Program-made: the position numbers and the translations under genes
Source: Candidatus Thalassarchaeum sp.
GTDB lineage: Archaea > Thermoplasmatota > Poseidoniia > Poseidoniales > Thalassarchaeaceae
Length of the DNA: 34,055 nt
Assembly: GCA_022449845.1 (NCBI GenBank)
Contig: JAKUOE010000005.1
Span: 1 to 34,055 of the forward strand
Reading direction: 5' to 3'
Shown here: piece by piece, positions 4,242 to 27,900 of the stretch
How positions within the stretch are numbered: position 1 is the first letter of the stretch
How the letters are laid out: each line of letters opens with the position of its first letter
The notes under the pieces: generated by a model
What the model was told of the DNA's origin: nothing
What the model saw: only the letters and a program-made list of their open reading frames with translations
Database searches by the model: none

Positions 4242-4263
4242 GCCTATCGGTCGGACCACCGGT

Positions 4264-5133: not shown

Positions 5134-5943
5134 TTATCGCTGACAACTCCCACAATAGAAGGTGGAGCGACCCGATTGAACGACCCTTTGAATCCAATTT
5201 GAGCACCCAAGAGAGATGCATTCCTCACCTTCTCTGTCGTACACTGCGAATTCGTGTGGAAAATAACCCAATGTCCCGTCGACCTGGCGAAATTGGCCGT
5301 CTCGAAGCGTCGAACCGCCCGCTTCGATTGCTGTCAACAAGACGGTGCGCGTCTCATCGTGAATGGCGGTGGCCTGTTTCTTTGAGATGTTCTTCGCGAG
5401 CCGTCTTGGTGAGATGCCGGCTCTGAACAAAATTTCGCTTGCGTAAATGTTGCCGATGCCGACAATGATTTTCTGATCCAGCAATGCGGTCTTGATGGAG
5501 ATGTTTCGGGCTCGCAGAGATTCGTGAAGATACTGAGCATTCCATTCATCGCCAAGGGGTTCAGGGCCCAAGTGGTCAAGCAAGGGATGATTGCTGCCGC
5601 CCCGAATCAAATCCTTGATTCCGAATCGACGAGGGTCGGTATACACCAGTCGTGAACCATCGACGAAGTCGACCACGACGTGGTCGTGCTTTCCCTCTAA
5701 TGAGTGACCGAAACGTCCAGTCATCCCAAGATGGGCGAGCCAAGTCAAATCGTTTTCCAATCGAATCAACAGATACTTCGCTCGACGATCGATGCCGAGG
5801 ATTTTGTGACCGGCGATGGAATCCATATCTTCTGGAAATGGGAAACGAAGGTCTGGGCGATTGAGTTCCACAGAAAGGATTCGCTTGCCGACATGAATCA
5901 AGAGACCGCGGCGCACCGTCTCAACTTCGGGCAACTCCGGCAT
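5134..5943 (-). CDS. mutM: Formamidopyrimidine-DNA glycosylase / AP lyase (Fpg)
   Basis: N-terminal MPELPEVET, RRAKYL, HLGMTG, DPRRFG, H2TH GIGNIYASE and C-terminal zinc finger ...RSTFYCGSCQR. Confidence 0.97.
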   Translation of the reverse strand: MPELPEVETVRRGLLIHVGKRILSVELNRPDLRFPFPEDMDSIAGHKILGIDRRAKYLLIRLENDLTWLAHLGMTGRFGHSLEGKHDHVVVDFVDGSRLVYTDPRRFGIKDLIRGGSNHPLLDHLGPEPLGDEWNAQYLHESLRARNISIKTALLDQKIIVGIGNIYASEILFRAGISPRRLAKNISKKQATAIHDETRTVLLTAIEAGGSTLRDGQFRQVDGTLGYFPHEFAVYDREGEECISLGCSNWIQRVVQSGRSTFYCGSCQR

Positions 5944-6610
5944 CAGTACACCACATGGAAAAGGACGTGTTGGTTTTCCCAGCCAGAGAGATCGATTCTC
6001 TCCACCAAGGTGAACCCTGAATCAATCAGGGATTGTTCTGCGTGATTGAACGCCCCGGCTGTATCACGCTCACTGGCGGATTTCAGAGAAAGTATTCCAG
6101 TTCCACCGGGAGCCAAGAATTGATGACAAGATTCGATGAACATCTCAACTTGACCTGATTGTGAGACATCTTGGAACAGCCATGGAACTTTGGTTGTGAC
6201 AAATGGAGAAATTTGAGTAGAATTGCGACAGTCCGCCAAAATCGGAAGGATGCCTGGGCGAGTCGAGGATAGACGAATGATATCACGAATGCATCGTGAA
6301 GAGATATCGACGGCAACAATCGACCCACCGAGGTGATTCTTGGACGCGCACACATGATCGTGCAGGTGACTGATGGTCGTCCCGTGCCTGAACCGAGATA
6401 CAGACATGTTGCGCCAGGTTCGGGGAGCAGGCCACGTTCGCTGGCTTTCAACAATCCAGCACCAAGTTTTGAGGCACGGGGATTCCATTGACGCCACTCC
6501 TTTCGTCCATCTCGCTTGAGACGCTCACCCCGGAGACTGGTGCCTTTCACGGCATTTCTAGACCACAAACTTCGGCCATCGATTCGGACTCGATCAGAGA
6601 AGGTTTTCAT
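5943..6610 (-). CDS. flpA: Fibrillarin-like rRNA/tRNA 2'-O-methyltransferase, interrupted by a 1-nt frameshift at about 6387
   Basis: N-half (WRQWNPRASKLGAG...CLYLGSG) is in ORF 6083-6721 from ATG 6610 with a GGTGA SD. C-half (HGTTISH...VAVDIS...PILAD...FQDVSQ...SLKS) is in ORF 5943-6497. It lies directly downstream of nop5. Confidence 0.9.
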
Positions 6611-6614
6611 TGAA

Positions 6615-7601
6615 TCACCGTCGACTTCTACGAGCCCGAATTTCACCCACTTTCTTCTCGACTTCGGCGACTTGTTTCGAAGTCCACGGTTCGCCCCCAA
6701 AGTGGTCCACTCGGGCGGCAATGGCTACCTTTGATGCAAGCATTCGGGCGATGGGACCGCGGGTCCATTTTGGGCTACGACTAATCCAATGATGTTGAAA
6801 GATGTGACCATGCTTGGGTGGATTGGTGCCTTGACGAAGGTGCATGAAGAAGGCCTTCTCTGCACCAAGAATCTGGATGGTACTGGCTGGAAGTCGGGCC
6901 AGACGAGCCCGCCCATGTGCGGTCGTACACAACTTGGCAGCCAATAGTGGTCCAATCAGAGCGGATAGTGAAGGTAAGTAAGCAAGCGATAATTCGCTAA
7001 CCGAATCCTCCAATTTCCCCACGATAGTGGTGAGATCCACTGCCGATTCAGCCAACGAATGGAGACCGGACCACTCCTTTGTGCCAACATCAACATCAGC
7101 CGATTTGACCTCTAGAAGTTCAGATAATTCCTGTAGATTCGATGAGGCGGCGATTGCGGAAACGATGGAAGGACGGTGTTCATCCAAATTCAAGGTTGGG
7201 AGAAAGAGACCGACCCATTCTACAAGGTTTGATTCAAGTGAGTTTTGGGATACACGAGCTTCATCCAACGCCCTTGAAAGATACTCTAGGCGGCGGTCAG
7301 GATCGGCGGCCGTCTCTGCAACACCCCGCTCTGCAAGTTTCAGTGATGCCTCCTGTAACAAAGCGGAGGAGGAGGCATCCAACTCTGGCCATGAATCGAA
7401 CGACACGGGTTGCGATGTCTTCGCGTCGGGAAAACGATCTGCAAGCGTTCGAGCCTCAGGGGTCATCCGACCTTCCATGAGCAAAGAGAGGCGCTCGACC
7501 AAGGCTGAAGTGCTTTGAACACCATCCCATATACACTCGTCAATGATACGTTCATCATCATCGTAAACGCGAGCCAATCGCCAATCCCACACCAGTTGCA
7601 C
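6615..7601 (-). CDS. nop5: Box C/D sRNP core protein Nop5 (Nop56/58)
   Basis: LPSLSALIGPLLAAKL, LARLPASTIQILGAEKAFF, PPKHGHIFQH and IARMLASKVAIAARVD; adjacent to fibrillarin. Confidence 0.95.
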   Translation of the reverse strand: MQLVWDWRLARVYDDDERIIDECIWDGVQSTSALVERLSLLMEGRMTPEARTLADRFPDAKTSQPVSFDSWPELDASSSALLQEASLKLAERGVAETAADPDRRLEYLSRALDEARVSQNSLESNLVEWVGLFLPTLNLDEHRPSIVSAIAASSNLQELSELLEVKSADVDVGTKEWSGLHSLAESAVDLTTIVGKLEDSVSELSLAYLPSLSALIGPLLAAKLCTTAHGRARLARLPASTIQILGAEKAFFMHLRQGTNPPKHGHIFQHHWISRSPKWTRGPIARMLASKVAIAARVDHFGGEPWTSKQVAEVEKKVGEIRARRSRR

Positions 7602-10795: not shown

Positions 10796-12664
10796 CTACT
10801 CCTCCTCAAGTGCTCCAGTTTGAATTGCCCATTGGCTGGAATAGACACCATTGTTGGCCACAAGGGTATCGTGTGTACCTCGTTCTACAACGGCGCCATC
10901 GACCATGGAGAGAATCTCGTCAGCATTCCGAATGGTGGACAAACGATGTGCGACAGCAATGGTGGTGCGGGATTCGCCTGTGCCTAGGAGATTGGATTGG
11001 ATCCGGCGCTCTGTCTCAGCATCCAATGCACTGGATGCCTCATCTAAAATCAACAAACTTGGCTTCATCAACATCGCACGAGCCAAGGAGATTCTGGCTC
11101 GCTGACCACCAGAGAGCATGACGCCTCGATCACCAACGAGGGTATCGATTCCTTGTTCCATATCGACAACGAATTCATCTGCACCGGCCAGATGGAGAGC
11201 CATCTCAATCTCATCCTCCGATGCTTCACGAGAATAGACGACATTGTCCCGGATACTGCCATAGAAGAGGAACGGGTCTTGACTGACGAAGCCCATCTGA
11301 TTACGAACGCTGTCCAAAGTAATGTCCTGTATGTTGCGGCCATTGACAAGAACTTCTCCAGAATCTGGCTCGTAATAGCGTAGAATCAATTTGAGAATTG
11401 TCGATTTACCTGCGCCAGTGTGACCCATCACACCGAGGAAACCACCGTGTCCAACCTTGAATGAGATGTCATTCAGTACAGGTGTATCTGTCCCTGGATA
11501 TGTGAACTGGACATGGGAAAACTCGATGCTTTCAATCGGTCCATCCAAAGCGGTTGCACCTTCTTTATCGACAATGCTCGGCTCCAAATCAACCATGGAG
11601 AAGACCCGGCGAGCAGCCGCCTCACCTCGTTGCAATTGATTGACCAGCATTCCAAAGATGAACAATGGCATCGACAGGCGTGTCATAATCAGTAGGAAGG
11701 TCACGAAGGCACCCGTCGAGATGTCACCGTCCTTCATCAGCCAACCACCGACTGAGACAAGCAGGCCATAGCAGATTCCAGCAACTGAATACAGACCGGG
11801 GATGAAGCGATTGCGATCCCGACTCGCGCCGATAGCCTGATCTCGGTAGCCCTCACTCTCATTCGAGACTCGGGTGGTCTCCCATTCCTGTGCATTGTAA
11901 GCCTGAACCACAGCAATGCCAGAGATGACATTCTCGAGAACAGCATTGATGCCACCTGTCGACTCTCGTTGTTTGCGATACTTGCGCTGCACACGGGTCG
12001 AAAAAAGATACACCATTGGGAAGATGACGACGAGCGGACCGAAGAGAACGGCTGTCAGTTTCCATGACATCATCATGAGAATGGCGAAGGCAGTGATGAA
12101 CGTGGTGAAAATTCGAATGATGGATGTGGAGGAGTCCGAGATGACATCTTCCAATTGATTGACATCTGAAGACAACACAGACATGAGAACGCCCGTTTGC
12201 CTCAAGTCGTAGTATGAAGCTTCCATGCGAATGAGATTGCGAGTCGCATCCATTCTTAGATCGTGCTGGACCTTGTAACCCAGTGTTTGCCAACAATACT
12301 CAGACAGACCTTGGAATATGGCGAGGCCGGCGAATCCAAGGAAAATCAGAACGCCATAAGAGAACGATTGATTATCGCTAATATGACCCAATAAGTGCTC
12401 ATCAAGGAAGGTTCGGAATTCACCTAGACGACCCTCGGAGGCGAGGCCGCTGTAGTAATCGACCGCGAAACCAATGAAGATGAATGGAACCAAATCGAAG
12501 ACTCGGGCGAGCATATTGGTTGCAATTCCGACCCCGGCACGACGGCGATAGGGGCGAACGTAAGGTAGAATTCGCCAAATCCTTCGACCTAGAATCTGAG
12601 TGTCATCCTCATCCCCTAGATTCGGCGAATTCCCAATCGAGACGCCATGGTGGCTTTGGGTCAT
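10796..12664 (-). CDS. ABC exporter, fused TMD-NBD (MsbA/MdlB-like)
   Basis: N-terminal TM domain; Walker A GHTGAGKS, Q-loop VSQDPFLF, signature LSGGQ, Walker B LILDEASSALD and AHRLST. Start uncertain (12664 chosen). Confidence 0.95.
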   Translation of the reverse strand: MTQSHHGVSIGNSPNLGDEDDTQILGRRIWRILPYVRPYRRRAGVGIATNMLARVFDLVPFIFIGFAVDYYSGLASEGRLGEFRTFLDEHLLGHISDNQSFSYGVLIFLGFAGLAIFQGLSEYCWQTLGYKVQHDLRMDATRNLIRMEASYYDLRQTGVLMSVLSSDVNQLEDVISDSSTSIIRIFTTFITAFAILMMMSWKLTAVLFGPLVVIFPMVYLFSTRVQRKYRKQRESTGGINAVLENVISGIAVVQAYNAQEWETTRVSNESEGYRDQAIGASRDRNRFIPGLYSVAGICYGLLVSVGGWLMKDGDISTGAFVTFLLIMTRLSMPLFIFGMLVNQLQRGEAAARRVFSMVDLEPSIVDKEGATALDGPIESIEFSHVQFTYPGTDTPVLNDISFKVGHGGFLGVMGHTGAGKSTILKLILRYYEPDSGEVLVNGRNIQDITLDSVRNQMGFVSQDPFLFYGSIRDNVVYSREASEDEIEMALHLAGADEFVVDMEQGIDTLVGDRGVMLSGGQRARISLARAMLMKPSLLILDEASSALDAETERRIQSNLLGTGESRTTIAVAHRLSTIRNADEILSMVDGAVVERGTHDTLVANNGVYSSQWAIQTGALEEE

Positions 12665-12717
12665 CAGGGTGGGCTCATGTCGATGGTTTTTCAATTCGCC
12701 CCTGTCATTTTCAGAAG

Positions 12718-13069: not shown

Positions 13070-13831
13070 TCATACGATTTCAATCAAACGAGAAAAACCG
13101 AAGGCGAAGGCGCGGCCATCCAACAATTCTCTCCAATAATGTGCTTCAAGGCGATAGCCATGACCATCATGTGACAGCACGATTTCATCACGATTCAAAA
13201 CAGAAAAAGACTGAGGGGCAATGTGCATTCCCAATCCAGATGCCTTCTGAACGGCCTCTTTGACCACCCATGTGCGGGTCGCTTCCTGAATCCCCACTCT
13301 TTGATCGATGTCCCACAATTGTTCAAGATACTGCAATTCTTCTCCAGATGTCATCATCGTCAAGAGATTTCGTGGACGAGGTGCATCCAAGGGTTCGGCA
13401 TCCAAACCAATCATTGAACCATTCAGAGATACTGCGGCAATCGAAATACCGTTGGAATGACCCAAAGTAATCTCGGACAACTTCGGACTCAGTGGACCAC
13501 CAGCACGCTCTCTGGCCTCCTGGTCTCTCCACATCAAAATGGGTTTTCGATGCTCATCCCGCACCACCCGTAGATCGAAAGGGTCGAAGCCGAGGTCCCG
13601 AAGAAGAGTGGCCAATGCATAACGAGCAGAGGCGTGTTCCATGGCTCGCTTAGCTGTGGCAAAAGTCGATGCTTCAAATGGGTCCACGAGCGGTAAATCT
13701 GACAATGTTGGTGCAGAATCCTCAGGATTGGGGTGGCCAACAGGCATCCAAACTGCGATGACGGTGTCGCCGCCACACGATTCAGGAAGGGGGAGAGGAG
13801 AAACAAGGCCTGATGGTCGCCATTTCACCAT
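13070..13831 (-). CDS. 4'-phosphopantetheinyl transferase (Sfp-like)
   Basis: HRKP, ITLGHS, IGLDAE (GxDxE) and WVVKEAVQKASGLG (WxxKEAxxK); GGTGA SD; directly downstream of the megasynthase. Confidence 0.9.
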   Translation of the reverse strand: MVKWRPSGLVSPLPLPESCGGDTVIAVWMPVGHPNPEDSAPTLSDLPLVDPFEASTFATAKRAMEHASARYALATLLRDLGFDPFDLRVVRDEHRKPILMWRDQEARERAGGPLSPKLSEITLGHSNGISIAAVSLNGSMIGLDAEPLDAPRPRNLLTMMTSGEELQYLEQLWDIDQRVGIQEATRTWVVKEAVQKASGLGMHIAPQSFSVLNRDEIVLSHDGHGYRLEAHYWRELLDGRAFAFGFSRLIEIV

Positions 13832-13841
13832 AATAATTCAC

Positions 13842-13867
13842 CAATTGGAAAATCAATTTTTCAATTG
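13842..13867. promoter_or_regulatory. 26-bp AT-rich near-perfect palindrome between the megasynthase and PPTase genes
   Basis: CAATTGGAAAAT-CA-ATTTTTCAATTG: 12-bp arms with one mismatch, abutting the PPTase SD. Confidence 0.5.
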
Positions 13868-13868
13868 A

Positions 13869-16800
13869 TTATTTCTCCTTTCTATTGAGGTTGAATCTCA
13901 ATTCCTCAGGGACCGGAGCCATACCTTTGAGACGGAGGCCTCGAAGTGACACCAGAGGTTTCTGATTTCGATCGAACACCATCGCATCATGAATCGTGAT
14001 TCCGTCGCTCTCCTGTCCACGACGGTAGCTTCGAACTCGCAAATCATCACGTAGAGAGGGAATCTTCAGAATCTCGCATTCCTCAATTCCAATTGGTAGG
14101 CTCGACAGATTGTCCACTTCCATTGCAACCAAACCTGCATTCTGGAAGCAAGCCTCAATGAGAAGTGGTAATGATTCCAGAAGCACAGGTTCTTCCTCAA
14201 ATAATTGTGAATTCGGGAGTTGACTGCGGAGCAGGGCAATTCCATCAGCACCCAAATTATCTCCGTCCGATACACCCTTGATGAGTGCACCATGGACCTG
14301 GAAGCGCGGTCCATGGAAGAAGCGGTCGTAAACGAAACTCGGTTGGAATGAGGCCTTGCCCTTTCCAGGTAGATCCGTGAAAGCCATCGGTGAATCTCTC
14401 TGAGCACCCTCCTTGAGTAAACGAACCATGGCCTGATGATGGACGAGAGGTTCCCCGAATATCTCTCCTTTCGAATTCACAAGATCACTTTCAAGATGGC
14501 ACTGGATGAACAGGGAATTGTGATCTTGTCCACTGAATTGAGCCCGGACACGAACACGGGCTTCCTCTTTCATCAATTTGATTGGAAGACCAAATTGAAC
14601 ATCGGAGAATCCCTCCAAATTGCACATCGGATAAAGCAACAGAGAACTCTGAGCAAACATTTCCATTGCCATCACACCAGGGTGGTAGGGGGTGCCTTCA
14701 ATCGAATGATCAATGAGGAAAGGGAATCTTTCAGAAGAGAGTGTGCACTCTGTGATAATCTCGGAATACGGTTCGTGTGTGATGATTCGATCGACGAAGG
14801 GGAAGCGCTCGGGTTCAGCGAGGGCTCCAGCGGTATCGGTCGGAAATTTCTGAGGCGGAGCGCGCTTGCAATTCTCATCATCTAGGATGCCTAAGGCACC
14901 TGCAACAACCACGCGACGTTTCCCTCCAGAAAGCATCTCTTGTACGAACAAATCGACTCCTGTTTCAACCGGAATCATCTCAATCCCGGCTTGCTCAAAC
15001 ACAGATTCGACCGAACCTCGAGTTGCCATGCCTACATCACTCCAACCCGACCACGCAATTGCAACCGCACGAGGGGCATCTTCGTGATGTGCAATGCGGC
15101 ACATTTCAGCATCGAGAATGTTGTTAGCAGCTGCATAATCGACTTGGCCGCCGTTTCCGAATCTGCCCGCGATTGAGGTGAAGGCACAGAGAACGCGTAA
15201 CTGGTCGATTTCATCGCCTAAAGCGTCCACTAAAGCCCTCCAACCATCAATTTTCACAGATATTACCGATGAGAATGTCTGCCATGATTTGTCTCCAACG
15301 AGTTTGGAATCTTCAAGGCCTGCACCGTGTACAAGTCCAGTGATTGTGCCGCATTCCTTCCCCACCGCTGTGATTACCTTGGAGACGGAGCGAGAATTCG
15401 TGACATCGCAGGCATCGTACAAAGCACGGTTGCCCGTCGCATGAATGTCCCGCATCGTTCGATGAATCTCCAGACTGCGCAGTTGTTTGTTCCACTCACG
15501 ATCCCATTCGACCATGGTGACTTTCCCCGAATCACTCTGAGAAATCATGTCCTCACGAAGTTCCATCTTACGTGCTTGCAAAGTGGATTCATCGTCTTCT
15601 AGCCATTCCTCGATAGAAGAATCAAGACGGGTGCGACCAAGAAGAATGAAGGTTGCACCGACGTTTTGACTCGCCTCTGCAACGCCAACGATACACCGTG
15701 CTGTGACACCTGAACCCCCTCCAGATATGACCCATACATCATCATTCTGAAGGGATTGAATTTCGTCGGTAAGATCTTCCTCATACAAACATAGAGTCCA
15801 GCGATTTCCGTCTCGTGACAAACCTACTTCTAGAGGTGAATTTCGGCCAAACGCCTCAGCCCATATCTGATGAGCGAGGGCGGTGGGGTCCGACAGGAGT
15901 TCGGGATCCACGTCGATGGCGCGGCAACGCAAATGTGGCTGTTCCTTGGCATATGACTTGACGATACCATGGGAACCGGCCGCGAGGGCGTTGAAACGGC
16001 TACCAGCATTGCCATGGCGACCATCCATTGCGCTGACAGACATGATTGTGCCGTCGGCAATTGAACTGAAGTGGGAATCCAGGGATTTCAGTAATCCAAA
16101 CAAACCATGTGTCGTCGATGTGAGGTGAGCCTGCTGTGTCTCACTTTCCCAACCCACACCTGCAAGACGGAGAGGGGCGAGGTGGAGAAGTGCGGCAACA
16201 TCACCAATTCTTGCGAGATGAGAACTGACTTCAGCCAATTGATCATGATTGCCGGGGTCGACACGAATGATGTCGACGGGACCGTCCTTCTCAATCTTGA
16301 TTTTGGAGACAATACTGGGGTCTAGCATGATTCGGACGGTGTCGATACCAGCAGCTTCCAGAATATGACACAATGTGTCTGCAACACCCCACGGGTCGTC
16401 GGTTACTGCGATAACCCTGCCATCGATATCAAGTGGAGTATTGGCTTCAGGAGGAATCGCCTCCGCCTCAACCTGCCACCGTCGGACGCCAAGAGATTCT
16501 GGTTGGATGGAAGGAGTTGGTGGATCAGGTTCAGAGATGATTGGTGGGGCTTCTATGGATTCAGGAGGGTCAGAATGTGATTCATCCTGACCCAAATATG
16601 CAATCATATGATTGAGAGTCGGGTGCTCACTCAAAACGAAAGATTCGTCCACCGGTAATCCGTAGAAATCACGGAGTTCAGCCATAATTTCGGCCTGCTT
16701 CACTGTGTCAATTCCGAGTTCACCCTCAAGATCCTGATCCAATTCGATGAAATCTTCAGGGTATCCAGTGTGTTTGACCACAACCTCGACCACTTTCGCA

Positions 16801-19800
16801 GCAACATCACCAGAGATTGGAGCCGTTGACAGTTGAACAACTTCCTCTTCCACAATGGGTTCAGGCTCGGGAAGAGGGATATCTTCTTGTTTTGAAGGAG
16901 AGGATTTAGGGGGAGAGAATGTGGACCAAGTAGTTCCCTGAACACCACCAATTATTTTCTCATCCGGATTGATATAAGCGACAAGTTGTCGGTTGAGAAT
17001 ACGCAGATCCACATCTCCATCACTCGCTTTACTCGCCCAGATGGCTACGTGTTCCCGATCCACGCGATCGAGGTTCGTAGCCATGCGCTTGACCATCGTG
17101 AACGCCATTTGCGAGCCAAATCCAGCGGCATGTCGAACGACGTACTCAACATCCACAGGACCTCCAGTTGACAGGCGGAGATGGCCCAATTCCGGATCGG
17201 GTTCCTTGAAATTCGCGATGGGGGGGAATTCACCCTGACACAGACCGCGAATCGAGACCGCATCTTCGATTCCAGTTCCCATCGGGTGACCTGTGAATCC
17301 CTTCGTGTTCGTGATGATAATCTCCGATGCGCTGTCACCAAAGGTTCTGCGAAGAGCCTGAATCTCCGCTGATGCCGAGCCCCCACGTGGTGGAGTGGCT
17401 GGTTCATGGGACATGAAGGAGGTTCGGGCGGCGATTGTATGACGATTCAGGCCCCAATTCTCTTCCATTTTCGCGATGAAGGTCTCCAACGAATCCGAGA
17501 CATGGTCAACATCTAGGCGGGTTGGGTGGAAGGCTGAATTGGCAAGATGTGTGCCGAGAAGTTCAGCATAGGGTGTAACCCCACGCTCCATTGCTAAACT
17601 GTGACGTTCGAGGACGAATGCGGCCGCACCCATCCCGAGGAGCATGCCATTTCGACGGGCATCGAAGGGGACACTGACTTCATCGACAACATTGCCCATT
17701 GCATGAGCGCCTGCGGCAGCGAAGCCAGCACCAATCCACGTCATCAATTCATCACTGGTTGAATCATCGGCACTGACGATGATGACTCGGTCGCAACGAC
17801 CTGTAGCCAACCAATCTTCTGCGATGGCGATTGCAGAGGGTGTCGAGGCGCAGGCATTGTTGACGGAAGCATTGGGTCCCCGTGCCCCAATCCATTGAGC
17901 AAATTGCGAATGACCCATGGTGAGAATCTGCAGTAGGAAGCGCCGGTCGAAATTGCCATCCTCATCCGCTCCATTGTTCTGCGCGTGCCGCATCGCTTGA
18001 TCGATTCCAGGGAAGCATGAGGCGAAGAGGACACCGGTACGGTCCCTCTCTGAGTCGGGCAAATGCCAATGTTGAATCAAACGCTTACCGGCTTTGTTAA
18101 TCTGTTCAACAGCCAGCAATGGTAAGCCTGCGTCCTTGAGTGCTTCAAGCCCAGCAGCCAGAGCGAGAGAGGTTGTGATATCCATCGCTTCGACAATCTT
18201 CGGATCCAAGCCATACTGTTCGGCCAAATCGAAGTGGCCCCGCCGCCCTGCTAGTTGAGGAATCAAGGTGAAATCATCACAAGGAACGAATTCGGCAGAA
18301 CCATCGGGGTGTTTGATAATTCGAACTAGATTTCGATCGAGGAGGCGTTGTTTGACGTCATCAGAAAGTTCGGAAATGAAATTCTCTCCACGGATTATCC
18401 GATCCAATGCATCGGGTGAGAATACCTCCTCCATTCCAGGCAATCCAAGGCTGAGTCCACTGAATACATAGGGGTCTCTGCGCCGAGCAGAAAGCGGATC
18501 TTCCGAGGTATGTATTCGCCGGTCGCTGAGGGTCTGAACTGAGATAGAATGGCCTTGTGGAACCTCAGCCAACCATTCGACGAGGCCTGGCAGTGTTGTT
18601 GCATTTGTACTGCCTTTGACTTGGTATTTGGACTGAATTTTCTGATGAATCTCTGATATCTGTACATCATTCAATCCGATTGTAAGCAAATCTGTCGAGC
18701 CGTGAATCATTCGTACAGGGAAGCCACTAACATCAGATACGATTCTTGCAATCGCAGACTCCTTGGACATCCGGTTGGCTTCATCCTGCTCCTCTTCAGT
18801 CATCACTGAAACCGGTGGAGGTGAGGAAGTGGGTGGTGCCGCTGGAATGACATGAGTCGGGGTAGATGTTCGGACACCGGCTCGGAAAGCCTCAGTGAGA
18901 ATGTCACTATTTGCATCCGGAATCTGCGGTATGCGGCCGGATAGCGCATGCAGTGCGAGAGCAGCATGGAAGGAGGCAATGCCGCCAACCTTGGGATGAT
19001 TGGTATTGGCGATAATCTTCGGTCGATCTTCAAATATCTGTTCGGCAAAGAGAGCTAGGGCTCGCTTGGGGCCAACTTCGATGAACATGCGAGCCCCGCC
19101 CTCGTACATCGTCTCCATCTGCTGTGTCCATTCGACGGCGGAAGCCATCTGTGGAGCGAGTTTGGCCAATATTGCTTGCTTGGCACTGCTGCCTGCTGGA
19201 GCGACATTCGGGTACCAACCGCCATCGAAATTCGAGGTGATTGGAATATTCGGCAATCGAATATCCAAACCCTCAAGGAAAGCGCGCAATGGTTCGTTCG
19301 CTGGGGCTACGATTCTGGAATGGAATGCATGACTGGTTTGTAGTTGTACACAGGAGACTCCGGCGTCATCGAAAGCCTTCATCACCCGCTTCATCGGTTC
19401 GGTCTCTCCGGCAATGACGGTCATTTTCGGACTGTTCTTGTTGGCGGCAATGACGTAACCATCTTCTGCTTCCAACACGGCTTCAATCTGTTCATAGGGA
19501 GCGGAGACTGAAGCCATGATTCCAGTGTCCTGGACCTCGACGTTGCCCATCTCAGTACCTCGTGCTGCGACGGCACGAAGAGCCGAGTCGAAATCGAGAA
19601 TGTCTGCAACCATCAGGGCCGCATACTCCCCCAGTGAATGGCCAGCAACCATGTCGGGTTCAAGTCCGTGCGCCTTGAGGAGACGATGGATGCCGAGGTC
19701 GGCCGTGAGCATCGCGGGTTGTGTGTACTCTGTTTGTTTGAGTTTGAATTCTGCATCTTTCTTCTCATCCTCAGTCAGATTCTCTCGAAGCACGAAGGAG

Positions 19801-19985
19801 GACAGAGTTTCACCTTCGAGAACTTCAATCATGGTCTGATCCGCTTCATCCCAAGTCTCTCCAATACAACGATACCGTTTGGAGAGGTCAAGGGTCATGC
19901 CGACATACTGGCTACCCTGCCCTGGATAGAGTTGAGCAACCTTGGCCTGTTCGGGCAATGGTGCAGTGTCGGTAATCATGACCAT
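13869..19985 (-). CDS. Type I FAS/PKS megasynthase, C-terminal part: AT-(degenerate ACP)-KS2-ACP-KR-DH
   Basis: AT: YPGQGSQ, GHSLGE, SHAFHS. KS2: NACAS, [68 protein letters not shown]. Same frame as 20160-21812. Confidence 0.92.
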   Translation of the reverse strand: [2038 protein letters not shown]

Positions 19986-20159
19986 CTGTTTGGCGAGAAA
20001 ATCCCATTTCGAACGATCGTCAATAGACTTCTCAAGTAGATCAAAACGCTTTGCGAGTTGAAACCAATCGCTGGCGACAATTGCGCATCTGACACCTTCA
20101 GCAATGTATCCTTTACTCGCCTGTGGAAGAACGATGGAGAGACGCTTTCCATGAGGGTC

Positions 20160-21812
20160 TTAATCGAAATTCGAACCACTGAAAAGTTCAGCCCTTATGG
20201 AGGAAAGTTTGGCGGTTAGTGCTTCCAAATCGGGAGCGTTGACCAACAGGACGCCGCCTTCAATCTCCTTCAATTCAGCGTGTGAGAAAGTGGCTGTTGA
20301 TGAGAGTGTAGTTTGCGCAGAAGTCCCCGGGTTCAACCAAGCATTGCGACGGGTGTCGAACTCGTTGGCGAGAAGGGAATGGAAATCTCGATCGTAAGCT
20401 TCCAGTGCACAATGGAAATTCGTCCCTCCAAAACCGAAGGAAGAGACGCCAGCGCGGCGAGGGTGTCCGTTTGGAGCCAACCACGATTTGGGTTCAGTGG
20501 GAACATAGAATGGATTCGTTTCCCAATCGATGTTCTCGTTCGGTGTGGAAAATCCGGCACTTGGAGGAATCGTGCCTGTTTCAACTGCCCGAATCGCCTT
20601 GACAAGGCCGGCAATTCCGGCGGCGGCCTTGAGATGACCGATTTGACTCTTGATTGAACCCACGGCGACGTTGTCGCCCGGAGGTGTGTTGGTAAATGCG
20701 GCAGAGAGACTGGTCAACTCTGTTGCATCACCGACGACTGTGGAGGTCCCATGAGCTTCGATTAATTCGACTGTCGAAGAATCGTAACCAGCCTGCATGT
20801 ATGCCCGACTTACCGCTTGAATCTGGCCGCGGGTGCTCGGTGCAGTGATGCCTTTACCGCGACCATCACTACTCGCACCCACTCCACGGATCACCGCTTG
20901 AATGGAGTCGCCATCACGAATCGCATCGGAGAGTCGTTTCAATGCGAGGGCGCCCGACCCCTCACCCATGACAAAACCGTTCGCCTGAGAATCGAAGGGT
21001 GTTGAATGCGTGGCTGAAAGTGCGCCAATGGCGCTGAATTTTGCAAATGTAGCTGGATCCATGGTTCGATCGCTAGCGCCTGCAATCATCATGTCCACTT
21101 GGCGTGTCTGTAGTAGCCTGCAAGCGTCTAGAATGGCAGCAAAGGTGGATGCACAAGCAGCATCCGTGGAATAATTCGGACCTTGAAGGTCGAGGAGGTT
21201 GGCGACCCTACCAGCCACAACATTCGCGAGTTCGCCTGGCATTGTATCCTCAGTGACAAGGGGGAGGCCGTCGAGAATCGCGTCCTTGAACGCCGCCTTT
21301 CCTTCACTCGGCATCCCTCCCGCCTCGACAGCGTGACGTGCGAACTGATCAGCCCACACACGATGATTGGTCAGATTTCGATTCTCTCCTCCTAGAGCAT
21401 TTGCGAAGATTACACCGGTCCGCTCCCGAGGTAATTCACGGGCTCCTTCACCCATGTATCCTGCATCTTCCAAAGCGGCTGCACTGACGGTGACTGCCCA
21501 CTGTTGTGTTGGATCAATTTGAGGAAGAGAACCAGGGGGGATTCGCCAGCGGCGCCAATCAAATTCAAAATTTTCAACCCATCCACCAATCTTTGAGTAG
21601 GTCTTGTTCTCATCGACATTCTTTGGTCCCCCCTCAACCCAGAAATCAGAAGATACCCATCTGTTTTCGGGAACCTCCTTGAGTGAGACATGAGCAGACA
21701 AGATATTCGCCCAGAATGTTTGAAGATTCGGTGCATCGGGCAACAGAGTCCCGACACCGATTACGGCAATCGGTTCAAACGGATCCTGTGGATGTTCGTC
21801 AGGGATTGTCAA
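20160..21812 (-). CDS. Type I FAS/PKS megasynthase, N-terminal ketosynthase (KS1, PfaA-like); continues in frame past one TAA into 13869-19985
   Basis: EPIAVIG, IDPTQ, TDAACAS (Cys), EAHGTST, GSIKSQIGHLK and GVSSFGFGGTNFH. TTG start with a GAGGCGA SD; 58 open codons link the stop to the next ORF. Confidence 0.92.
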   Translation of the reverse strand: MTIPDEHPQDPFEPIAVIGVGTLLPDAPNLQTFWANILSAHVSLKEVPENRWVSSDFWVEGGPKNVDENKTYSKIGGWVENFEFDWRRWRIPPGSLPQIDPTQQWAVTVSAAALEDAGYMGEGARELPRERTGVIFANALGGENRNLTNHRVWADQFARHAVEAGGMPSEGKAAFKDAILDGLPLVTEDTMPGELANVVAGRVANLLDLQGPNYSTDAACASTFAAILDACRLLQTRQVDMMIAGASDRTMDPATFAKFSAIGALSATHSTPFDSQANGFVMGEGSGALALKRLSDAIRDGDSIQAVIRGVGASSDGRGKGITAPSTRGQIQAVSRAYMQAGYDSSTVELIEAHGTSTVVGDATELTSLSAAFTNTPPGDNVAVGSIKSQIGHLKAAAGIAGLVKAIRAVETGTIPPSAGFSTPNENIDWETNPFYVPTEPKSWLAPNGHPRRAGVSSFGFGGTNFHCALEAYDRDFHSLLANEFDTRRNAWLNPGTSAQTTLSSTATFSHAELKEIEGGVLLVNAPDLEALTAKLSSIRAELFSGSNFD

Positions 21813-21821
21813 TATCTCGCC

Positions 21822-22613
21822 TCAGTCACTGATGCTATCTGGAACCATCGTGCTGGAGTATCCAGCATCGACGTGAATCACTTGTCCTGTCACGCCGGAA
21901 CCTAGCGGGCTTGAAAGCCAAACTGCACAACCGGCAACATCGTCTTGGTTGACATTGCGGCGCAGAGGAGAATTGCGTTCGACATGATCCAATATGTCGT
22001 CGAAACCAGGGATGCCGCTCGCAGCCAAGGTTCGAATCGGACCAGATGAAATGGCGTTGACACGATGGCCGTCCTCACCGACTCGCATCGCCAATTCTCG
22101 AACCCATGCCTCAAGGGCGGCCTTGGCGATGCTCATGACACCATAATTGGGGACATAACGAGTGCTCGCAGCATAGGTGAGGGTGATCGTCGATGAATTC
22201 TCTGCTAGATGGGGCAAGGCATGACGCATGACACGTTGAAGAGAATGGGCGGAAATCGTCATCGCGATATTGAGGGGTTCATCTTCAACGAATAGCATGT
22301 GTCGATCAAAACATTCGCTCGGTGCGAAACCAATCGCATGGATGATGATGTCTGCCTTTGAACCGGGCGCTGCCTTCTGCCATTCCTGGAAAAATTCCGC
22401 TGTTGTCTCTTCAGAACCGACATCGATAGGATAGAATGCCTCGATGGCCGAAAGTTTGTCTTTGAGTTGGAAAACACGGCTCATGAATCGCTTCTGATAT
22501 CCAAGGATGAGTTTGCATCCGGCTTGCGCCAATCGATTGCAAATTGCCCAGGCAATTGAATCCTCAGATGCAACACCAAACACCAGTGCAGTTTTTCCTT
22601 CAAGTTGCAACAT
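21822..22613 (-). CDS. fabI: Enoyl-ACP reductase (FabI-type SDR)
   Basis: GVASEDSIAWAI, HAIGFAP, ISAHS, TLTY, PNYGVMSIAKAALE (YxxMxxxK), RVNAISSGPIRTLAASGI and VTGQVIHVDAG. Confidence 0.95.
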   Translation of the reverse strand: MLQLEGKTALVFGVASEDSIAWAICNRLAQAGCKLILGYQKRFMSRVFQLKDKLSAIEAFYPIDVGSEETTAEFFQEWQKAAPGSKADIIIHAIGFAPSECFDRHMLFVEDEPLNIAMTISAHSLQRVMRHALPHLAENSSTITLTYAASTRYVPNYGVMSIAKAALEAWVRELAMRVGEDGHRVNAISSGPIRTLAASGIPGFDDILDHVERNSPLRRNVNQDDVAGCAVWLSSPLGSGVTGQVIHVDAGYSSTMVPDSISD

Positions 22614-24927: not shown

Positions 24928-27900
24928 TCATTCTTGGCTGGCGAGCCACTCTTCGAGTTGCTCAACATTCCAGCCTTGATCGAAGTAGCCCTGAATCGTC
25001 GCCTCATCCCAGAACGGGAATTTCTCCTTGGCGATGTCCATCGGGCTCTTCGCAGCCGCAGGTGGGCCACGTGAAGCACCAGGTGGACCACGTCGGTCAC
25101 CGGCTCGGGTCGCGGGTGGACCCCGACTTCGCATCGGTTCAACGGCCTGGGCGGCTGGGAGGAAATCATCTTCCTCGATGTATTCGAGTTCATCGTCCTC
25201 AACGGTTCGGTTGAGAACGAGCAGTACGATGACGACAGCGACGATGAGGAGGGCAACGATGCCAGCAATACCAACGAGCAGCATGGTGTTCCCACCTTCA
25301 TCACTTTCAGCGAACTTCGCAACATTGAACGAATCGATAGAAGCGATTTCTTGATTATTCATGTCCAAAATAACGTAACTGACATTGATTGCCGCATTCG
25401 GGAATTGATCCATCGAAATTCGCCAACGTGTATCTTCTCCAGGTTGTACACTGAACGGACAAGTGTAAGTGACTGGGGAACTGGCTTCATCGCCAATCCA
25501 TGTCACGATTTGAATCTCCAGAACACCTTCCTTGTTGCCATCATTCTGGAAGTCAATCAACAGATCAAAGTCTGTCTGAGCCATGGGTTTGTCGACCGAC
25601 ATATCGACCCGACTGATGGTGAACTGTGCAGACTCATACGCCAACTCATAGGTACCTGCACCACTGTTGACTGAGGTTCCAAAGGAACCCGCGCCACCGA
25701 TGGTTTGTCCAGATGAATCATAACCAGTCAACCAGAATTTGACAATCACATTGTCCATGTCCTCAGGAATGGGTTGTGTTGAGGGCCATAGATCGAAACA
25801 AGTGGATGTCGCCCGAATCTGACCTTGTGACGATTCAAGGTACAGTGGAGTGCTTTCCCAACCTTCACCGTCTTCAAATGTGTTCAGATATTCAGTCCAG
25901 TTATACTCGAATCCACCGACTTCCTGTGTCTTATAGAACATCCAGTTCAATGAAACAGAATCCGTATCCATGCCTTGTAATTCGTCAATGAGAACCTCTG
26001 CATCGAGACAATTCATGACCGATGAAGAGATGCTCCCTTCTAACGTCTCACCCGTCACAGAATTCGAAAGATCCCACGACCCGAACACTGTGTCAGGCCT
26101 GTCACCATCGACCTTCACGATGAATGAACGCGATGGGGCAGGCGTATTGTCAACTGCACCATTGGGCAGACCGAGCAATTCCAATGTGTAACTGTACTCA
26201 TTGGTAGCATATGCTGCGGGCACCACCAATTGGAAAGAACCGTTCTCAAAGTCGTATTCGTTCACTTCGACCAGTGCGGGTGAATAACCACTGTCGGGCA
26301 AACCAGCTGGATAGAGAGGGGAGCGAGTGACCTGCAGACTGAGAGGAATCTCGGGGCTGACGAAGATCAAATCATTCATCCCTGCGCTGAACACATATCG
26401 GCCTTCAATGACCAAGATGTCGCCTTGATAGACGAAGCCACCAGATGCTGTGCCGACGCCGTCGGTCGGGAACCCGGAGGTGTCCTCAACAGAGAAAGTC
26501 GTTGTATCGAGTTCAATTCCACTCGAGTACGACCATCGCTGTGGATTTCGAGAGGCACTGATGTGGACCTCGTTGTTGTTCAAATCCTTGTCCTTCATTG
26601 CGATATCTGGTGTCTTCACACCACCGACGTAGCCAATGGGTATAGCCCACTCCATTCGAATTGGTACATCGAGGGTGAATTGCTGTTCGAAGGGTGAAAT
26701 CAAGATATTTCCTTCGCGCGTCAGCATGCGTGGTTTGATTCCTGTATTTTCATAATCATCTAGAATTTCAATCCAGGTGCTTTCAGTCCATGCCGTGTCA
26801 TTCTGTGGTGAATAGAACATCTGGATACAACCCTCTGGGTCGTAGGATGCTCCGGCTTCGTTGCAGATTTGTGGATTGAGGGTGATGGTAATCGTCTCAA
26901 CATCCTGCCAACCGTTGTCATCCTTTCCATCGACCAGCAAGTGATACACGTTGCCAGCGTAAAGGGACCGATTGTTTTCATTCAACATCGTGCCATGCGA
27001 ATCCGAGATTCGGAAGGCTTCGACAAGAGGTGTGCGGCTTTCCATCGCAATGTAGGTGACCGTGTCCGCGTTGATTCCAGGTCCACCGCCATCGATTTGA
27101 TTGCCACCGATGTCTGAACCGGAGACGAATAGACTGACCATCTGAGGTGGATCGATTCCACTGTTGGCATAATCACTGATACATTCACACGGATGATCAA
27201 TGAGGTAGTATGAGGTGTCCGCTTCAGTTTGACGTGCAAGGGTCATCTGCGAATACTCGTTCAGTTGTGCTTCTCGGTCCATCTCGCCCGTATCGGGCGC
27301 AACGTATGAGGGTACACCTGGACAGAGGCCGTCGAGTCCACAGTCATCCGATGCCTCGACCCAATAATTGAGGGTCAGAGTCTCGGGGGCGAGAGGTAGG
27401 TCCTGAGCAGCCACTCGGAATTTCTGGTTGTTACTCGCCTTCACCCAAGTGTCGTCAGTGAGTTCTCGCCAATCGCCCTGCACACTGTACACGGAGATAT
27501 TCATCAGATGAGGTGAGAAGGGGTCCAATGTGATTGTGAATCGAATCGCACAGTCACTGTCTGGATTGAAACTCTCAGGAGGACAGAGCAAATCGCCATC
27601 GGTGTAATTGTGAATCAACAATCGATACTGTTCCACACCAGCCTCTGATGCTGGAAGATTTGGTTGCCATGAATAATCGCCATCGATGGTCGCAGGTGTG
27701 GAATCCACAAACAACCAATCTTCAAACATGATTTCGGATTGGTTCCGCTTCTCCAACTTGACCGTGTAACTGTTCGGATTTGGAGCAACATCCAGATCTT
27801 CGTATCGAACATTGAAGTCCAGTGTAATCGTGTTGCTTGAGAAGGCATTGGTCAAATCAGTCTGTTCAACACCACCTTGGTTGAAGAGGGTGAAGTCGGT

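What the first reader, a model, noticed from the sequence alone, without database searches (positions are those of the whole stretch)
13070..22613. Complete ACP-dependent fatty-acid/polyketide assembly line (FabI + type I megasynthase + PPTase) in an archaeal chromosome
Seen: three co-oriented, closely spaced genes (gaps of 9 and 37 bp) supply KS, AT with the malonyl-type HAFH motif, ACP, KR and DH, plus a stand-alone FabI enoyl reductase and an Sfp-like PPTase. They sit among archaeal core genes and use archaeal-style SD sites. Established: these activities cover a full reductive elongation cycle, while archaea build isoprenoid-ether membranes and generally lack ACP-dependent FAS. Inference: this archaeon may make long acyl chains or a lipid-like polyketide de novo, which bears on proposed mixed bacterial/archaeal lipids in Marine Group II. 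No thioesterase or release domain is visible, so the chain may be handed to another acceptor.
Basis: partly seen in the sequence, partly recalled or inferred. Interest (0 to 1): 0.92.

Follow-up and report, generated by a model that had tools for sequence, protein, structure and literature searches.

The report
Archaeal acyl-chain synthase with threonine carrier
Marine Group II archaea carry a conserved three-gene operon of bacterial origin that should build reduced acyl chains, and its carrier domain has a threonine where every studied acyl carrier protein has the cofactor-bearing serine.

Summary
On the minus strand lie FabI (21822-22613), one PfaA-like megasynthase (13869-21812) and an Sfp-type PPTase (13070-13831), flanked by archaeal core genes. 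There is a second, motif-complete ketosynthase, so the order is KS-AT-KS2-ACP-KR-DH. An in-frame TAA is private to this genome. The carrier domain has Thr, not Ser, at the pantetheine site.

The operon is not an assembly chimera. It was found in 40 of 41 related genomes of the order, and sits beside the TBP gene in both families examined. The Poseidoniales sequences form one clade nested among bacterial ones. The family matches the bacterial "Type R secondary lipid synthase" of Shulse and Allen (2011), whose product is still unknown. About 90% of its members examined have threonine-only carriers.

FabI lies next to the synthase only in Poseidoniales, and the two are present or absent together in 64 of 64 genomes of the window's family. 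The synthase holds the only carrier domains, and the operon the only PPTase, in 5 of 5 genomes searched.

The best reading is a self-contained synthase of a fully reduced acyl chain. Product, release step and expression are not shown. The link to membrane lipids is untested, and six genera of the same family lack the operon.

The parts
21822..22613 (-). FabI-type enoyl reductase (263 aa), acting in trans
   Evidence: PF13561 4.8e-68. Best solved relative is Thermus FabI 1ULU at 4.7e-57, with Y-x6-K (YGVMSIAK) kept. Directly upstream of the synthase in 37 of 40 relatives. Present or absent together with the synthase in 64 of 64 family genomes.
20388..21776 (-). KS1 domain of the megasynthase (ORF 20160-21812, TTG start)
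   Evidence: PF00109, PF02801 and PF16197. Best NCBIfam model is the PfaA subfamily TIGR02813 at 363.6 bits, below its cut-off of 1010. Cys and both His motifs present.
20160..20162 (-). In-frame TAA in the KS-AT linker, private to this genome
   Evidence: Homologues have D (45), E (30), N (27) or another residue (15) in the 117 aligned at this column. Relatives with a whole copy show one open frame of 2653-3051 aa.
19029..19931 (-). Acyltransferase domain, malonyl-type motifs
   Evidence: PF00698 3.2e-34. GHSLGE at 19626-19643 and HAFH at 19320-19331.
17082..18215 (-). KS2, a second FabF-like ketosynthase (the 'CLF' of Shulse and Allen)
   Evidence: PF00109 2.9e-14. TIGR03150 fabF 7.6e-39. 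Best solved relatives are FabF enzymes, 1J3N at 4e-25. Cys and two His are present here and invariant in 12 of 12 diverse members.
16593..16796 (-). Single carrier (ACP) domain with Thr at the attachment position (codon ACA at 16704-16706)
   Evidence: PF00550 1.1e-11. The Thr aligns with the Ser of PigH, 2N98, 1F80 and 1KLP.
15039..15461 (-). Ketoreductase catalytic part
   Evidence: PF08659 4.4e-23. DYAAAN at 15123-15140.
13926..14768 (-). PKS-type dehydratase
   Evidence: PF21089 and PF14765. The HxxxGxxxxP motif reads HSIEGTPYHP at 14679-14708.
13070..13831 (-). Sfp-type phosphopantetheinyl transferase (253 aa)
   Evidence: PF01648 1.5e-10. The family profile's best solved match is Sfp, 1QR0/4MRT, at 8e-17. 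Invariant D144, E146, W188, K191 and E192. It is the only PF01648 match in each of 5 genomes.

Best explanation
This is a vertically inherited three-gene operon of Marine Group II archaea (Poseidoniales), acquired long ago from bacteria.

It encodes an iterative, PfaA-like 'Type R' secondary-lipid synthase with the order KS1-AT-KS2-ACP-KR-DH. With it come a FabI enoyl reductase that works in trans and a dedicated Sfp-type PPTase.

Inferred mechanism:
1. The PPTase puts phosphopantetheine on the carrier domain, at a threonine rather than a serine.
2. The AT loads malonyl units.
3. The two ketosynthases share priming and elongation.
4. KR, DH and FabI reduce each beta-keto group fully.
5. The product is therefore a saturated or nearly saturated long acyl chain held on the carrier.

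How the chain leaves is unknown. The best lead is a 550-aa PlsC-family acyltransferase elsewhere in the genome.

The copy in this window carries one TAA, which is probably a recent change or a consensus error.

Shown: gene content, catalytic motifs, conservation, co-distribution, and the family it belongs to. Inferred: pantetheinylation of Thr, the division of labour between the two KS, the degree of reduction, the product and the release step.
For: Domains and motifs. Catalytic residues of KS1, AT, KS2, KR and DH are invariant in 12 of 12 diverse members.

Conservation in Poseidoniales:
- KS1 was found in 40 of 41 related genomes, covering 3 families and 7 genera.
- FabI is adjacent in 37 of 40 relatives, and the PPTase lies on the same contig downstream in 25 of 40.
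- The upstream order 1959-aa gene, 272-aa gene, TBP, TatD is shared with Poseidoniaceae loci. TBP and TatD match in 8 of 8, the 272-aa gene in 7 of 8, and the 1959-aa gene in 6 of 8, the other loci being cut short by a contig end.
- Poseidoniales form one clade (support 100) whose inner branching follows the families.

Self-contained system: PP-binding domains occur only inside the synthase, and there is one PPTase, in 5 of 5 genomes. Each genome has three carboxyltransferase genes that could supply malonyl-CoA.

FabI is tied to the synthase. The same 20 of 64 family genomes have both, and the other 44 have neither.

Family:
- 809 representatives match at E <= 1e-30, and the same domain order recurs.
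- It matches the Type R description: KS-MAT-CLF-ACP(3-6)-KR plus a downstream PPTase.

Thr is likely functional:
- 136 of 149 representatives have Thr-only carriers, as do 90 of 101 loci.
- Ser replaces Thr in an otherwise unchanged motif at least 3 separate times on the tree.
- A PPTase is fused or adjacent in 72 of 101 loci.

The stop:
- Private amino-acid changes at otherwise conserved positions downstream of it number 22, against 336 private codon changes whose residue others share. Genus mates show 11/311 to 27/287.
- The same contig also has a frameshifted fibrillarin gene, which is whole in 3 of the 4 other genomes searched and cut by contig ends in the fourth, G007.
Against: - No product, no release enzyme and no expression data are in hand.
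- Thr at the attachment site could mean that the carriers are not modified. PPTases are known as serine enzymes, and E. coli ACP S36T is reported unmodified (recalled, from no call).
- The TAA may be real and inactivating here.
- The operon was not found in 44 of 64 genomes of the same family, so it is dispensable.
- FabI scores lie below NCBIfam equivalog cut-offs: 227 bits against 391.
- The 550-aa acyltransferase is missing from 6 of 20 synthase-positive genomes, and related genomes are not independent samples.
- Bacterial relatives have no FabI next to the synthase (0 of 72 non-Poseidoniales loci), so full reduction may not be a family trait.
Confidence: 0.68

Rival explanations
1. The window's copy is a pseudogene. 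The TAA is real, the KS is separated from the rest, and this lineage is losing the system as other Thalassarchaeaceae genera have.
For: - TAA at 20160-20162.
- Six genera of the same family (43 genomes) and one genome of a seventh have no synthase and no FabI.
- A second genome, G022, has a frame break in its copy.
Against: - The ratio of private amino-acid to private same-residue codon changes downstream of the stop is like that of genus mates with whole copies.
- FabI and the PPTase are intact.
- All 4 other genomes of the genus in the family sample keep the KS2 domain, each in a frame with no stop inside the match.
- The contig also has a frameshift in the core fibrillarin gene, which points to consensus errors.
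Confidence: 0.17
2. The product is a specialised polyketide, such as a polyene or an enediyne-like precursor, and not a lipid acyl chain.
For: - The order KS-AT-ACP-KR-DH with a C-terminal PPTase is that of enediyne PKSE (recalled, from no call).
- The PPTase is fused to the C-terminus in 8 of 101 loci.
- The KS1 domain's best solved relatives are PKS ketosynthases.
Against: - A FabI is strictly co-distributed with the synthase and adjacent to it.
- A FabF-like second KS is present.
- No tailoring, thioesterase or resistance genes are in the conserved neighbourhood.
- In other lineages the neighbours are lipid-type genes: acetyl-CoA carboxylase carboxyltransferase, and acyl-CoA dehydrogenase with ETF.
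Confidence: 0.1
3. It is a polyunsaturated fatty acid (Pfa) synthase.
For: Best NCBIfam model is the PfaA subfamily TIGR02813. Relatives have tandem carriers.
Against: - Scores of 363.6 and 410.4 bits are far below the 1010 cut-off.
- There is no further KS gene in the genome that could be PfaC. The other PF00109 matches are weak hits in frames of about 400 aa.
- No FabA-type dehydratase/isomerase domain is in the synthase.
- The reductase is FabI, not PfaD.
Confidence: 0.04
4. It is bacterial DNA joined to an archaeal contig by mis-assembly or mis-binning.
For: The family is mostly bacterial. One homologous contig sits in a bin titled as a Roseobacter (L085).
Against: - Archaeal core genes lie on both sides.
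- G+C is even across the window.
- The same neighbourhood occurs in both families, TBP and TatD matching in 8 of 8 Poseidoniaceae loci.
- The operon is present in a single-contig 2.06-Mb genome.
- Contigs from 4 runs of 4 studies cover the cluster and run over both its ends.
Confidence: 0.01

Closest known systems
Type R secondary lipid synthase (Shulse and Allen 2011, PMC3098273; passages read)
   Same: - One pfaA homologue with KS-MAT-'CLF'-ACP(n)-KR, followed by a PPTase gene.
- An acetyl-CoA carboxylase gene is sometimes adjacent.
- Relatives of the named hosts (Korobacteraceae, Bryobacteraceae, Elusimicrobiaceae, Chloroflexota) sit in the same KS2 tree.
- The product is uncharacterised.
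   Different: - The host here is an archaeon; the paper contains the word 'archaea' 0 times.
- A FabI gene is added upstream.
- There are 1-4 carriers rather than 3-6.
- The 'CLF' keeps Cys-His-His and so reads as a second active KS.
- A C-terminal PKS-type DH is present.
- The paper contains the words serine and threonine 0 times, so it does not mention the Thr carrier.
PfaA of bacterial PUFA synthases (NCBIfam TIGR02813)
   Same: KS-AT-tandem ACP-KR-DH order. The carrier motif LGID(S/T)(I/V)K is of the same type. It is the best-scoring curated model.
   Different: Scores are below the cut-off. There is an extra KS between AT and ACP. No PfaB, PfaC or PfaD partners were seen. The reductase is FabI. 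The carrier has Thr for Ser.
Enediyne PKSE (recalled, not tested)
   Same: An iterative KS-AT-ACP-KR-DH enzyme with its own PPTase, which is fused in some relatives.
   Different: A second KS, an enoyl reductase partner, and no enediyne accessory genes nearby.
Bacterial type II FAS parts (FabI, FabF, Sfp)
   Same: - FabI resembles 1ULU at 4.7e-57 with Y-x6-K kept.
- KS2 resembles FabF.
- The PPTase profile resembles Sfp at 8e-17.
   Different: The parts are built into, or dedicated to, one megasynthase. No free ACP was found, and no further KS gene beyond weak PF00109 hits; FabH, FabG and FabZ were not searched for.

Membership tests
Type R secondary lipid synthase | Single pfaA homologue with KS-MAT-CLF-ACP(n)-KR | tested here: met
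   Pfam order KS, AT, KS, PP-binding, KR, DH. The same order recurs in the representatives over 2500 aa listed.
Type R secondary lipid synthase | PPTase gene directly downstream | tested here: met
   13070-13831, 37 bp after the synthase. A PPTase was found in 72 of 101 loci of the family.
Type R secondary lipid synthase | Common descent with the named Type R hosts (Koribacter, Solibacter, Elusimicrobium, Roseiflexus) | tested here: inconclusive
   Relatives titled Korobacteraceae, Bryobacteraceae, Elusimicrobiaceae and Chloroflexota are in the same KS2 tree. The four type genomes themselves were not fetched.
PfaA / PUFA synthase | Score over the curated cut-off of TIGR02813 | tested here: not met
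   363.6 and 410.4 bits against 1010.1.
PfaA / PUFA synthase | Partner genes PfaC (KS-CLF-DH-DH) and PfaD | tested here: not met
   No strong KS match outside the synthase in 5 of 5 genomes. The operon's neighbours are FabI and a PPTase only. PfaD itself was not searched genome-wide.
Acyl carrier protein (PP-binding) | Match to PF00550 over its cut-off | tested here: met
   45.2 bits against 20.8; 39.6 bits.
Acyl carrier protein (PP-binding) | Serine at the start of helix II that bears phosphopantetheine | tested here: not met
   Thr (ACA, 16704-16706) aligns with that Ser in all 4 alignments shown.
Acyl carrier protein (PP-binding) | Carries 4'-phosphopantetheine | not testable with these tools
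   Needs mass spectrometry of the carrier co-expressed with the PPTase.
FabI enoyl-ACP reductase | Score over an NCBIfam FabI equivalog cut-off | tested here: not met
   Best is 227 bits against 391 (NF005615). All 12 top models are FabI.
FabI enoyl-ACP reductase | SDR fold family with the Tyr-x6-Lys catalytic pair | tested here: met
   PF13561 at 229.7 bits. YGVMSIAK aligns with the same motif of 1ULU.
Sfp-type (group II) PPTase | ACPS domain, about 230-250 aa in two halves, with the Mg-binding and catalytic motifs | tested here: met
   PF01648 at 41.5 bits against 25; PF17837 is weak at 17 against 27. G-x-D-x-E and W-x-x-K-E are invariant in 28 of 28 sequences. The profile's best solved match is Sfp.

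The most novel reading that the evidence does not exclude
A large family of megasynthases, which includes the only carrier-protein system of the ocean's most abundant planktonic archaea, carries phosphopantetheine on threonine rather than serine. It is loaded by a PPTase that travels with the synthase and is specialised for it. With it, Marine Group II archaea make fatty acyl chains de novo and hand them to a co-distributed PlsC-family acyltransferase.
Probability: 0.35. Interest if true: 0.85.

Novelty: new variant of a known kind. Interest (0 to 1): 0.68.

Why it matters
Marine Group II archaea are among the most abundant microbes of the surface ocean and have never been cultured. Their membrane chemistry is part of the debate on the "lipid divide" between archaea and bacteria.

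A conserved, self-contained, ACP-dependent synthase with its own reductase and PPTase gives that debate a concrete and testable gene set. It also defines natural controls: six sister genera that lack it.

Separately, the threonine at the cofactor site is shared by about 90% of the family members examined, across many bacterial phyla. If it is modified, it would be an unreported form of a textbook modification, and possibly a carrier and PPTase pair that does not cross-react with the usual ones.

The family's product has been unknown since 2011.

Tried and rejected
- Expression: no RNA holder was listed.
- Checking the TAA in public runs: contigs of 4 runs span 20160. The stop could therefore not be checked.
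- PPTase against solved structures as a single sequence gave only E = 0.16. A profile of 28 sequences was used instead.
- A shared reductase next to the synthase in other archaea and in Elusimicrobia: Pfam on 10 neighbours gave none.
- ABC exporter 10796-12694 as part of the system: a homologue was found in 1 of 8 Poseidoniaceae loci, and there about 8 kb away. Rejected.
- PlsC-type acyltransferases as a family linked to the synthase: present in 64 of 64 genomes regardless. Rejected for the family as a whole; one 550-aa paralogue is kept as a lead.
- PlsY: 0 of 5 genomes.
- A degenerate ACP between AT and KS2: only 3.8 bits, E = 0.006 against a single target. Left as a note.
- Literature: ten searches found no paper that describes this operon in Marine Group II or a threonine-type carrier. 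The library lacks most subscription journals. Villanueva et al. 2017 was not seen.
The supplements of Rinke et al. (Figs S13-S15, Tables S5 and S6) may list these genes.
- No structure prediction, fold search, complex prediction or atlas search was run. A PPTase and ACP pair would tend to pass by likeness to solved pairs and would say nothing about the threonine.
Full report
**What is there**

The minus strand of 13070-22613 holds three co-oriented genes.

- FabI (21822-22613, 263 aa) matches PF13561 at 4.8e-68. It aligns over its whole length with solved bacterial FabI enzymes. The best is Thermus 1ULU at 4.7e-57, and the Tyr-x6-Lys pair is kept.
- Nine bases downstream a TTG opens the megasynthase.
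- 37 bases after the megasynthase stop, an ATG preceded by GGTGA opens a 253-aa PPTase (PF01648 1.5e-10).

The megasynthase frame runs from 21812 to 13869 with one in-frame TAA at 20160-20162. Pfam and NCBIfam give the order KS1, AT, a second KS, one PP-binding domain, KR and a PKS-type DH. The expected motifs are all present:
- Cys and two His in both KS domains.
- GHSLGE and HAFH in the AT.
- YAAAN in the KR.
- HxxxGxxxxP in the DH.

These catalytic residues are invariant in 12 of 12 diverse family members. No thioesterase was seen.

**Is it archaeal?**

The flanks encode fibrillarin, Nop5 and PCNA on one side and TBP on the other. G+C is even across the window.

Close homologues carry source names such as Marine Group II euryarchaeote, Candidatus Thalassarchaeum and Candidatus Poseidoniales.

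Conservation across relatives:
- KS1 was found in 40 of 41 related genomes, covering 3 families and 7 genera. The one miss is 78% complete.
- FabI lies directly upstream in 37 of 40 relatives. The other three are two contig breaks and the genome without a match.
- The PPTase lies downstream on the same contig in 25 of 40, on another contig in 13, and was not found in 2.
- Eight loci of the other large family, mostly titled Poseidoniaceae or Poseidoniales, share the upstream order 1959-aa gene, 272-aa gene, TBP, TatD. TBP and TatD match in 8 of 8, the 272-aa gene in 7 of 8 and the 1959-aa gene in 6 of 8; the misses are loci that begin at a contig end.
- One relative is a single 2.06-Mb contig that holds the operon.
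- Contigs from four public runs of four studies cover the cluster and run over both ends of the stretch.

A chimeric join is excluded.

**What family is it?**

A HMMER search of the KS2-ACP part against 1.84 billion representatives gave 809 proteins at E <= 1e-30. The order KS1-AT-linker-KS2-ACP(n)-KR-DH recurs in the representatives over 2500 aa listed.

A scan of species-representative genomes found 593 confirmed loci. The best 80 come from these groups:
- Bacteria: Acidobacteriota, Elusimicrobiota, Chloroflexota, Actinomycetota, Myxococcota, Thermodesulfobacteriota and proteobacteria.
- Archaea: Poseidoniales, other Thermoplasmatota and a Heimdallarchaeum.

This fits the "Type R secondary lipid synthase" of Shulse and Allen 2011 (PMC3098273; passages read). 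That type is one pfaA homologue with KS-MAT-CLF-ACP(3-6)-KR plus a downstream PPTase, found in Koribacter, Solibacter, Elusimicrobium and Roseiflexus. Its product is unknown. The paper contains "archaea" 0 times.

The best curated model is PfaA (TIGR02813), but at 363.6 and 410.4 bits against a cut-off of 1010. KS2 is FabF-like and keeps its catalytic triad, so "chain length factor" is a misnomer here.

**History**

In a KS2 tree of 86 rows the Poseidoniales form one clade with support 100. Its inner branching follows the family codes. The clade includes two contigs whose bins are titled Methanobacteriota and Salipiger. Its sister group is a Myxococcota row plus two rows from bins titled Enterobacterales, with support 92.

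Other Thermoplasmatota and the Heimdallarchaeum fall elsewhere on long branches, so their placement is unsure.

Across the phylum, KS2 was found in 132 of 401 sampled genomes and 42 of 161 genera.
- In the family read as Poseidoniaceae it was found in 58 of 58.
- In the window's own family, at 85% completeness or more, it was found in 20 of 64. Seven genera have it (19 of 20 genomes, plus the window's own genome) and six genera have none (0 of 43). The six include a single-contig genome.

The operon is therefore old, vertically inherited and dispensable.

**The reductase**

By tblastn, FabI lies next to the synthase in 8 of the 80 named loci. Six are titled Poseidoniales, Poseidoniaceae or Poseidonia, and the other two fall inside the Poseidoniales clade. 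It lies next to none of the other 72. It is also adjacent in the 20 operon regions fetched from relatives.

In the window's family the same 20 of 64 genomes have FabI and the synthase, and the other 44 have neither. Related genomes are not independent samples, but the agreement is complete.

Many bacterial loci instead carry other genes:
- a 559-aa acyl-CoA dehydrogenase directly upstream (33 of 80 loci);
- ETF alpha and beta and an Fe-S protein beside it (15-17 loci);
- an acetyl-CoA carboxylase carboxyltransferase downstream (15 loci).

**A closed system**

In the window's genome and four relatives:
- PP-binding domains were found only inside the synthase (1, 2, 3, 3 and 3 matches).
- PF01648 was found once, in the operon.
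- Strong KS matches were found only in the synthase.
- Three carboxyltransferase genes are present in each genome.
- PlsY was found in 0 of 5.
- PlsC-type acyltransferases are present in 5 of 5 and in 64 of 64 family genomes, so as a family they do not depend on the synthase.

One 550-aa PlsC-family paralogue is a lead. Full-length orthologues (E <= 1e-99) were found in 14 of 20 synthase-positive genomes and 0 of 44 synthase-negative genomes. An orthologue at 39% identity exists in a Poseidoniaceae genome. The six positive genomes without it are four of one genus and two incomplete genomes, one being the window's own.

**The threonine carrier**

The window's carrier motif is DLEGELGIDTVKQAEIM. 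In all four HMMER alignments shown against solved carriers (PigH, 2N98, 1F80, 1KLP), the Thr stands where the modified Ser stands.

The same holds across the family:

| Set examined | Thr only | Ser only | Mixed | No carrier motif |
|---|---|---|---|---|
| 111 full-length Marine Group II sequences | 102 | 9 | 0 | 0 |
| 149 representatives at 50% identity | 136 | 3 | 1 | 9 |
| 101 loci | 90 | 1 | 1 | 9 |

The pattern used also catches one GIDTV outside the carrier, so it does not count domains.

On the KS2 tree the Ser and Thr states need at least 3 changes. The motif around the residue stays the same when Ser replaces Thr.

A PPTase is adjacent or fused in 72 of 101 loci (fused in 8), and many of the rest end at a contig edge. 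In 28 of 28 aligned PPTases the Mg-binding and catalytic motifs are invariant. The profile's best solved match is Sfp at 8e-17.

I infer that the Thr is the attachment site and that the travelling PPTase accepts it. This is not shown. That serine is otherwise universal at this site, and that E. coli ACP S36T is not modified, are recalled and come from no call.

**The stop codon**

At the TAA column the 117 aligned homologues have D (45), E (30), N (27) or another residue (15), so one base change from GAA would give the stop. It lies in the KS-AT linker.

Whole copies in the same genus have single frames of 2653-2767 aa. Downstream of the stop the window has 22 private amino-acid changes at positions where the six compared copies agree, and 336 private codon changes whose residue is shared with at least one other copy. 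Four genus mates with whole genes show 11/311 to 27/287. No relaxed selection is visible.

The same contig has a frameshift in fibrillarin near 6377-6386. That gene is in one frame in 3 of the 4 other genomes searched, and is cut by contig ends in the fourth (G007). A recent change or a consensus error is more likely than an old pseudogene.

Public contigs span the site, but the difference table was cut off before it.

Depth in the bin that holds the carrier-coding stretch (16564-16887) was about 2 to 4 times that of the flanks in all four runs. This may be cross-mapping from other strains or collapsed carrier repeats, so one carrier may be an undercount.

**Literature**

The two large comparative studies of Marine Group II were read as passages only: Rinke 2018 (PMC6461757) and Tully 2019 (PMC6336850). 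Neither contains "polyketide" or "acyl carrier". Both discuss fatty acid degradation, and Rinke discusses the G3P backbone.

Damashek 2020 (bioRxiv 10.1101/2020.09.16.299958; passages) likewise contains neither term.

[quoted passage not shown] I did not see the 2017 paper, so part of the idea may be in print.

Ten searches found nothing on this operon in Marine Group II or on threonine carriers. Supplements were closed.

**Verdict**

This is a real, ancient, self-contained ACP-type synthase operon in Marine Group II, able on paper to run full reductive cycles. It belongs to a known but uncharacterised bacterial family, is absent from part of the group, and has no shown product or link to membranes.

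What is new is the FabI partnership, the archaeal distribution and the family-wide threonine carrier.

Noticed in passing
window 5943-6721 (-): The fibrillarin gene is split between two frames near 6377-6386: profile positions 21-84 in one frame and 82-225 in the other. It is in one frame in 3 of the 4 other genomes searched and is cut by contig ends in G007. This is likely a consensus error in this contig.
   Followed up: yes
window 24928-30807 (-): A 1959-aa ORF has no Pfam match. It is conserved at 34-35% identity over about 1500-1860 aa in 5 of 8 Poseidoniaceae loci and in two pieces in a sixth, at the same place upstream of TBP.
   Followed up: partly
window 3501-4259 (-) and 2002-3504 (-): There is a homologue of bacterial prolipoprotein diacylglyceryl transferase (PF01790, 2.6e-23), overlapping by 4 bases a radical SAM gene with an HMPTM zinc ribbon. 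An enzyme that uses diacylglycerol lipids is unexpected in an archaeon.
   Followed up: no
window about 18540-18750 (-), residues 470-540 after the stop: The stretch between AT and KS2 aligns weakly and in register with the carrier domain (3.8 bits), with Asp at the attachment position. The sister clade has a true carrier at this place. It may be a decayed carrier.
   Followed up: partly
G014:C12:7925-9571 (locus L109 1926-3575): A 550-aa PlsC-family acyltransferase has full-length orthologues in 14 of 20 synthase-positive and 0 of 44 synthase-negative genomes of the family. It is a candidate acceptor enzyme. No HxxxxD motif was found in it; the nearest stretch reads H-x5-D.
   Followed up: partly
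L048 4341-8229 and L082 34-1713 (bacterial loci): An acyl-CoA dehydrogenase lies directly upstream of the synthase in 33 of 80 loci, with ETF alpha and beta and an Fe-S/CCG protein beside it in 15-17 loci. This may be an alternative enoyl reductase acting in trans.
   Followed up: partly
L085 and L055: Two contigs carry the Poseidoniales-type operon and neighbourhood but sit in bins titled Salipiger bermudensis and Methanobacteriota archaeon. They are likely mis-binned or loosely named.
   Followed up: partly
L095 (G022) about 6446-6770: A second genome of the genus has its synthase in two overlapping frames (1872 and 1018 aa), with the break after the carrier region.
   Followed up: no
L096 (G024) and L020: One Thalassarchaeaceae genus has Ser-type carriers (two) and a PPTase only 26% identical to the window's. 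The Heimdallarchaeum locus has a mix of Ser and Thr carriers and two PPTase copies, one fused and one free.
   Followed up: partly
window 16564-16887: Summed contig depth in the bin that holds the carrier-coding stretch is about 2 to 4 times that of the flanks in all four public runs. This could be cross-mapping from other strains or collapsed tandem carriers.
   Followed up: no
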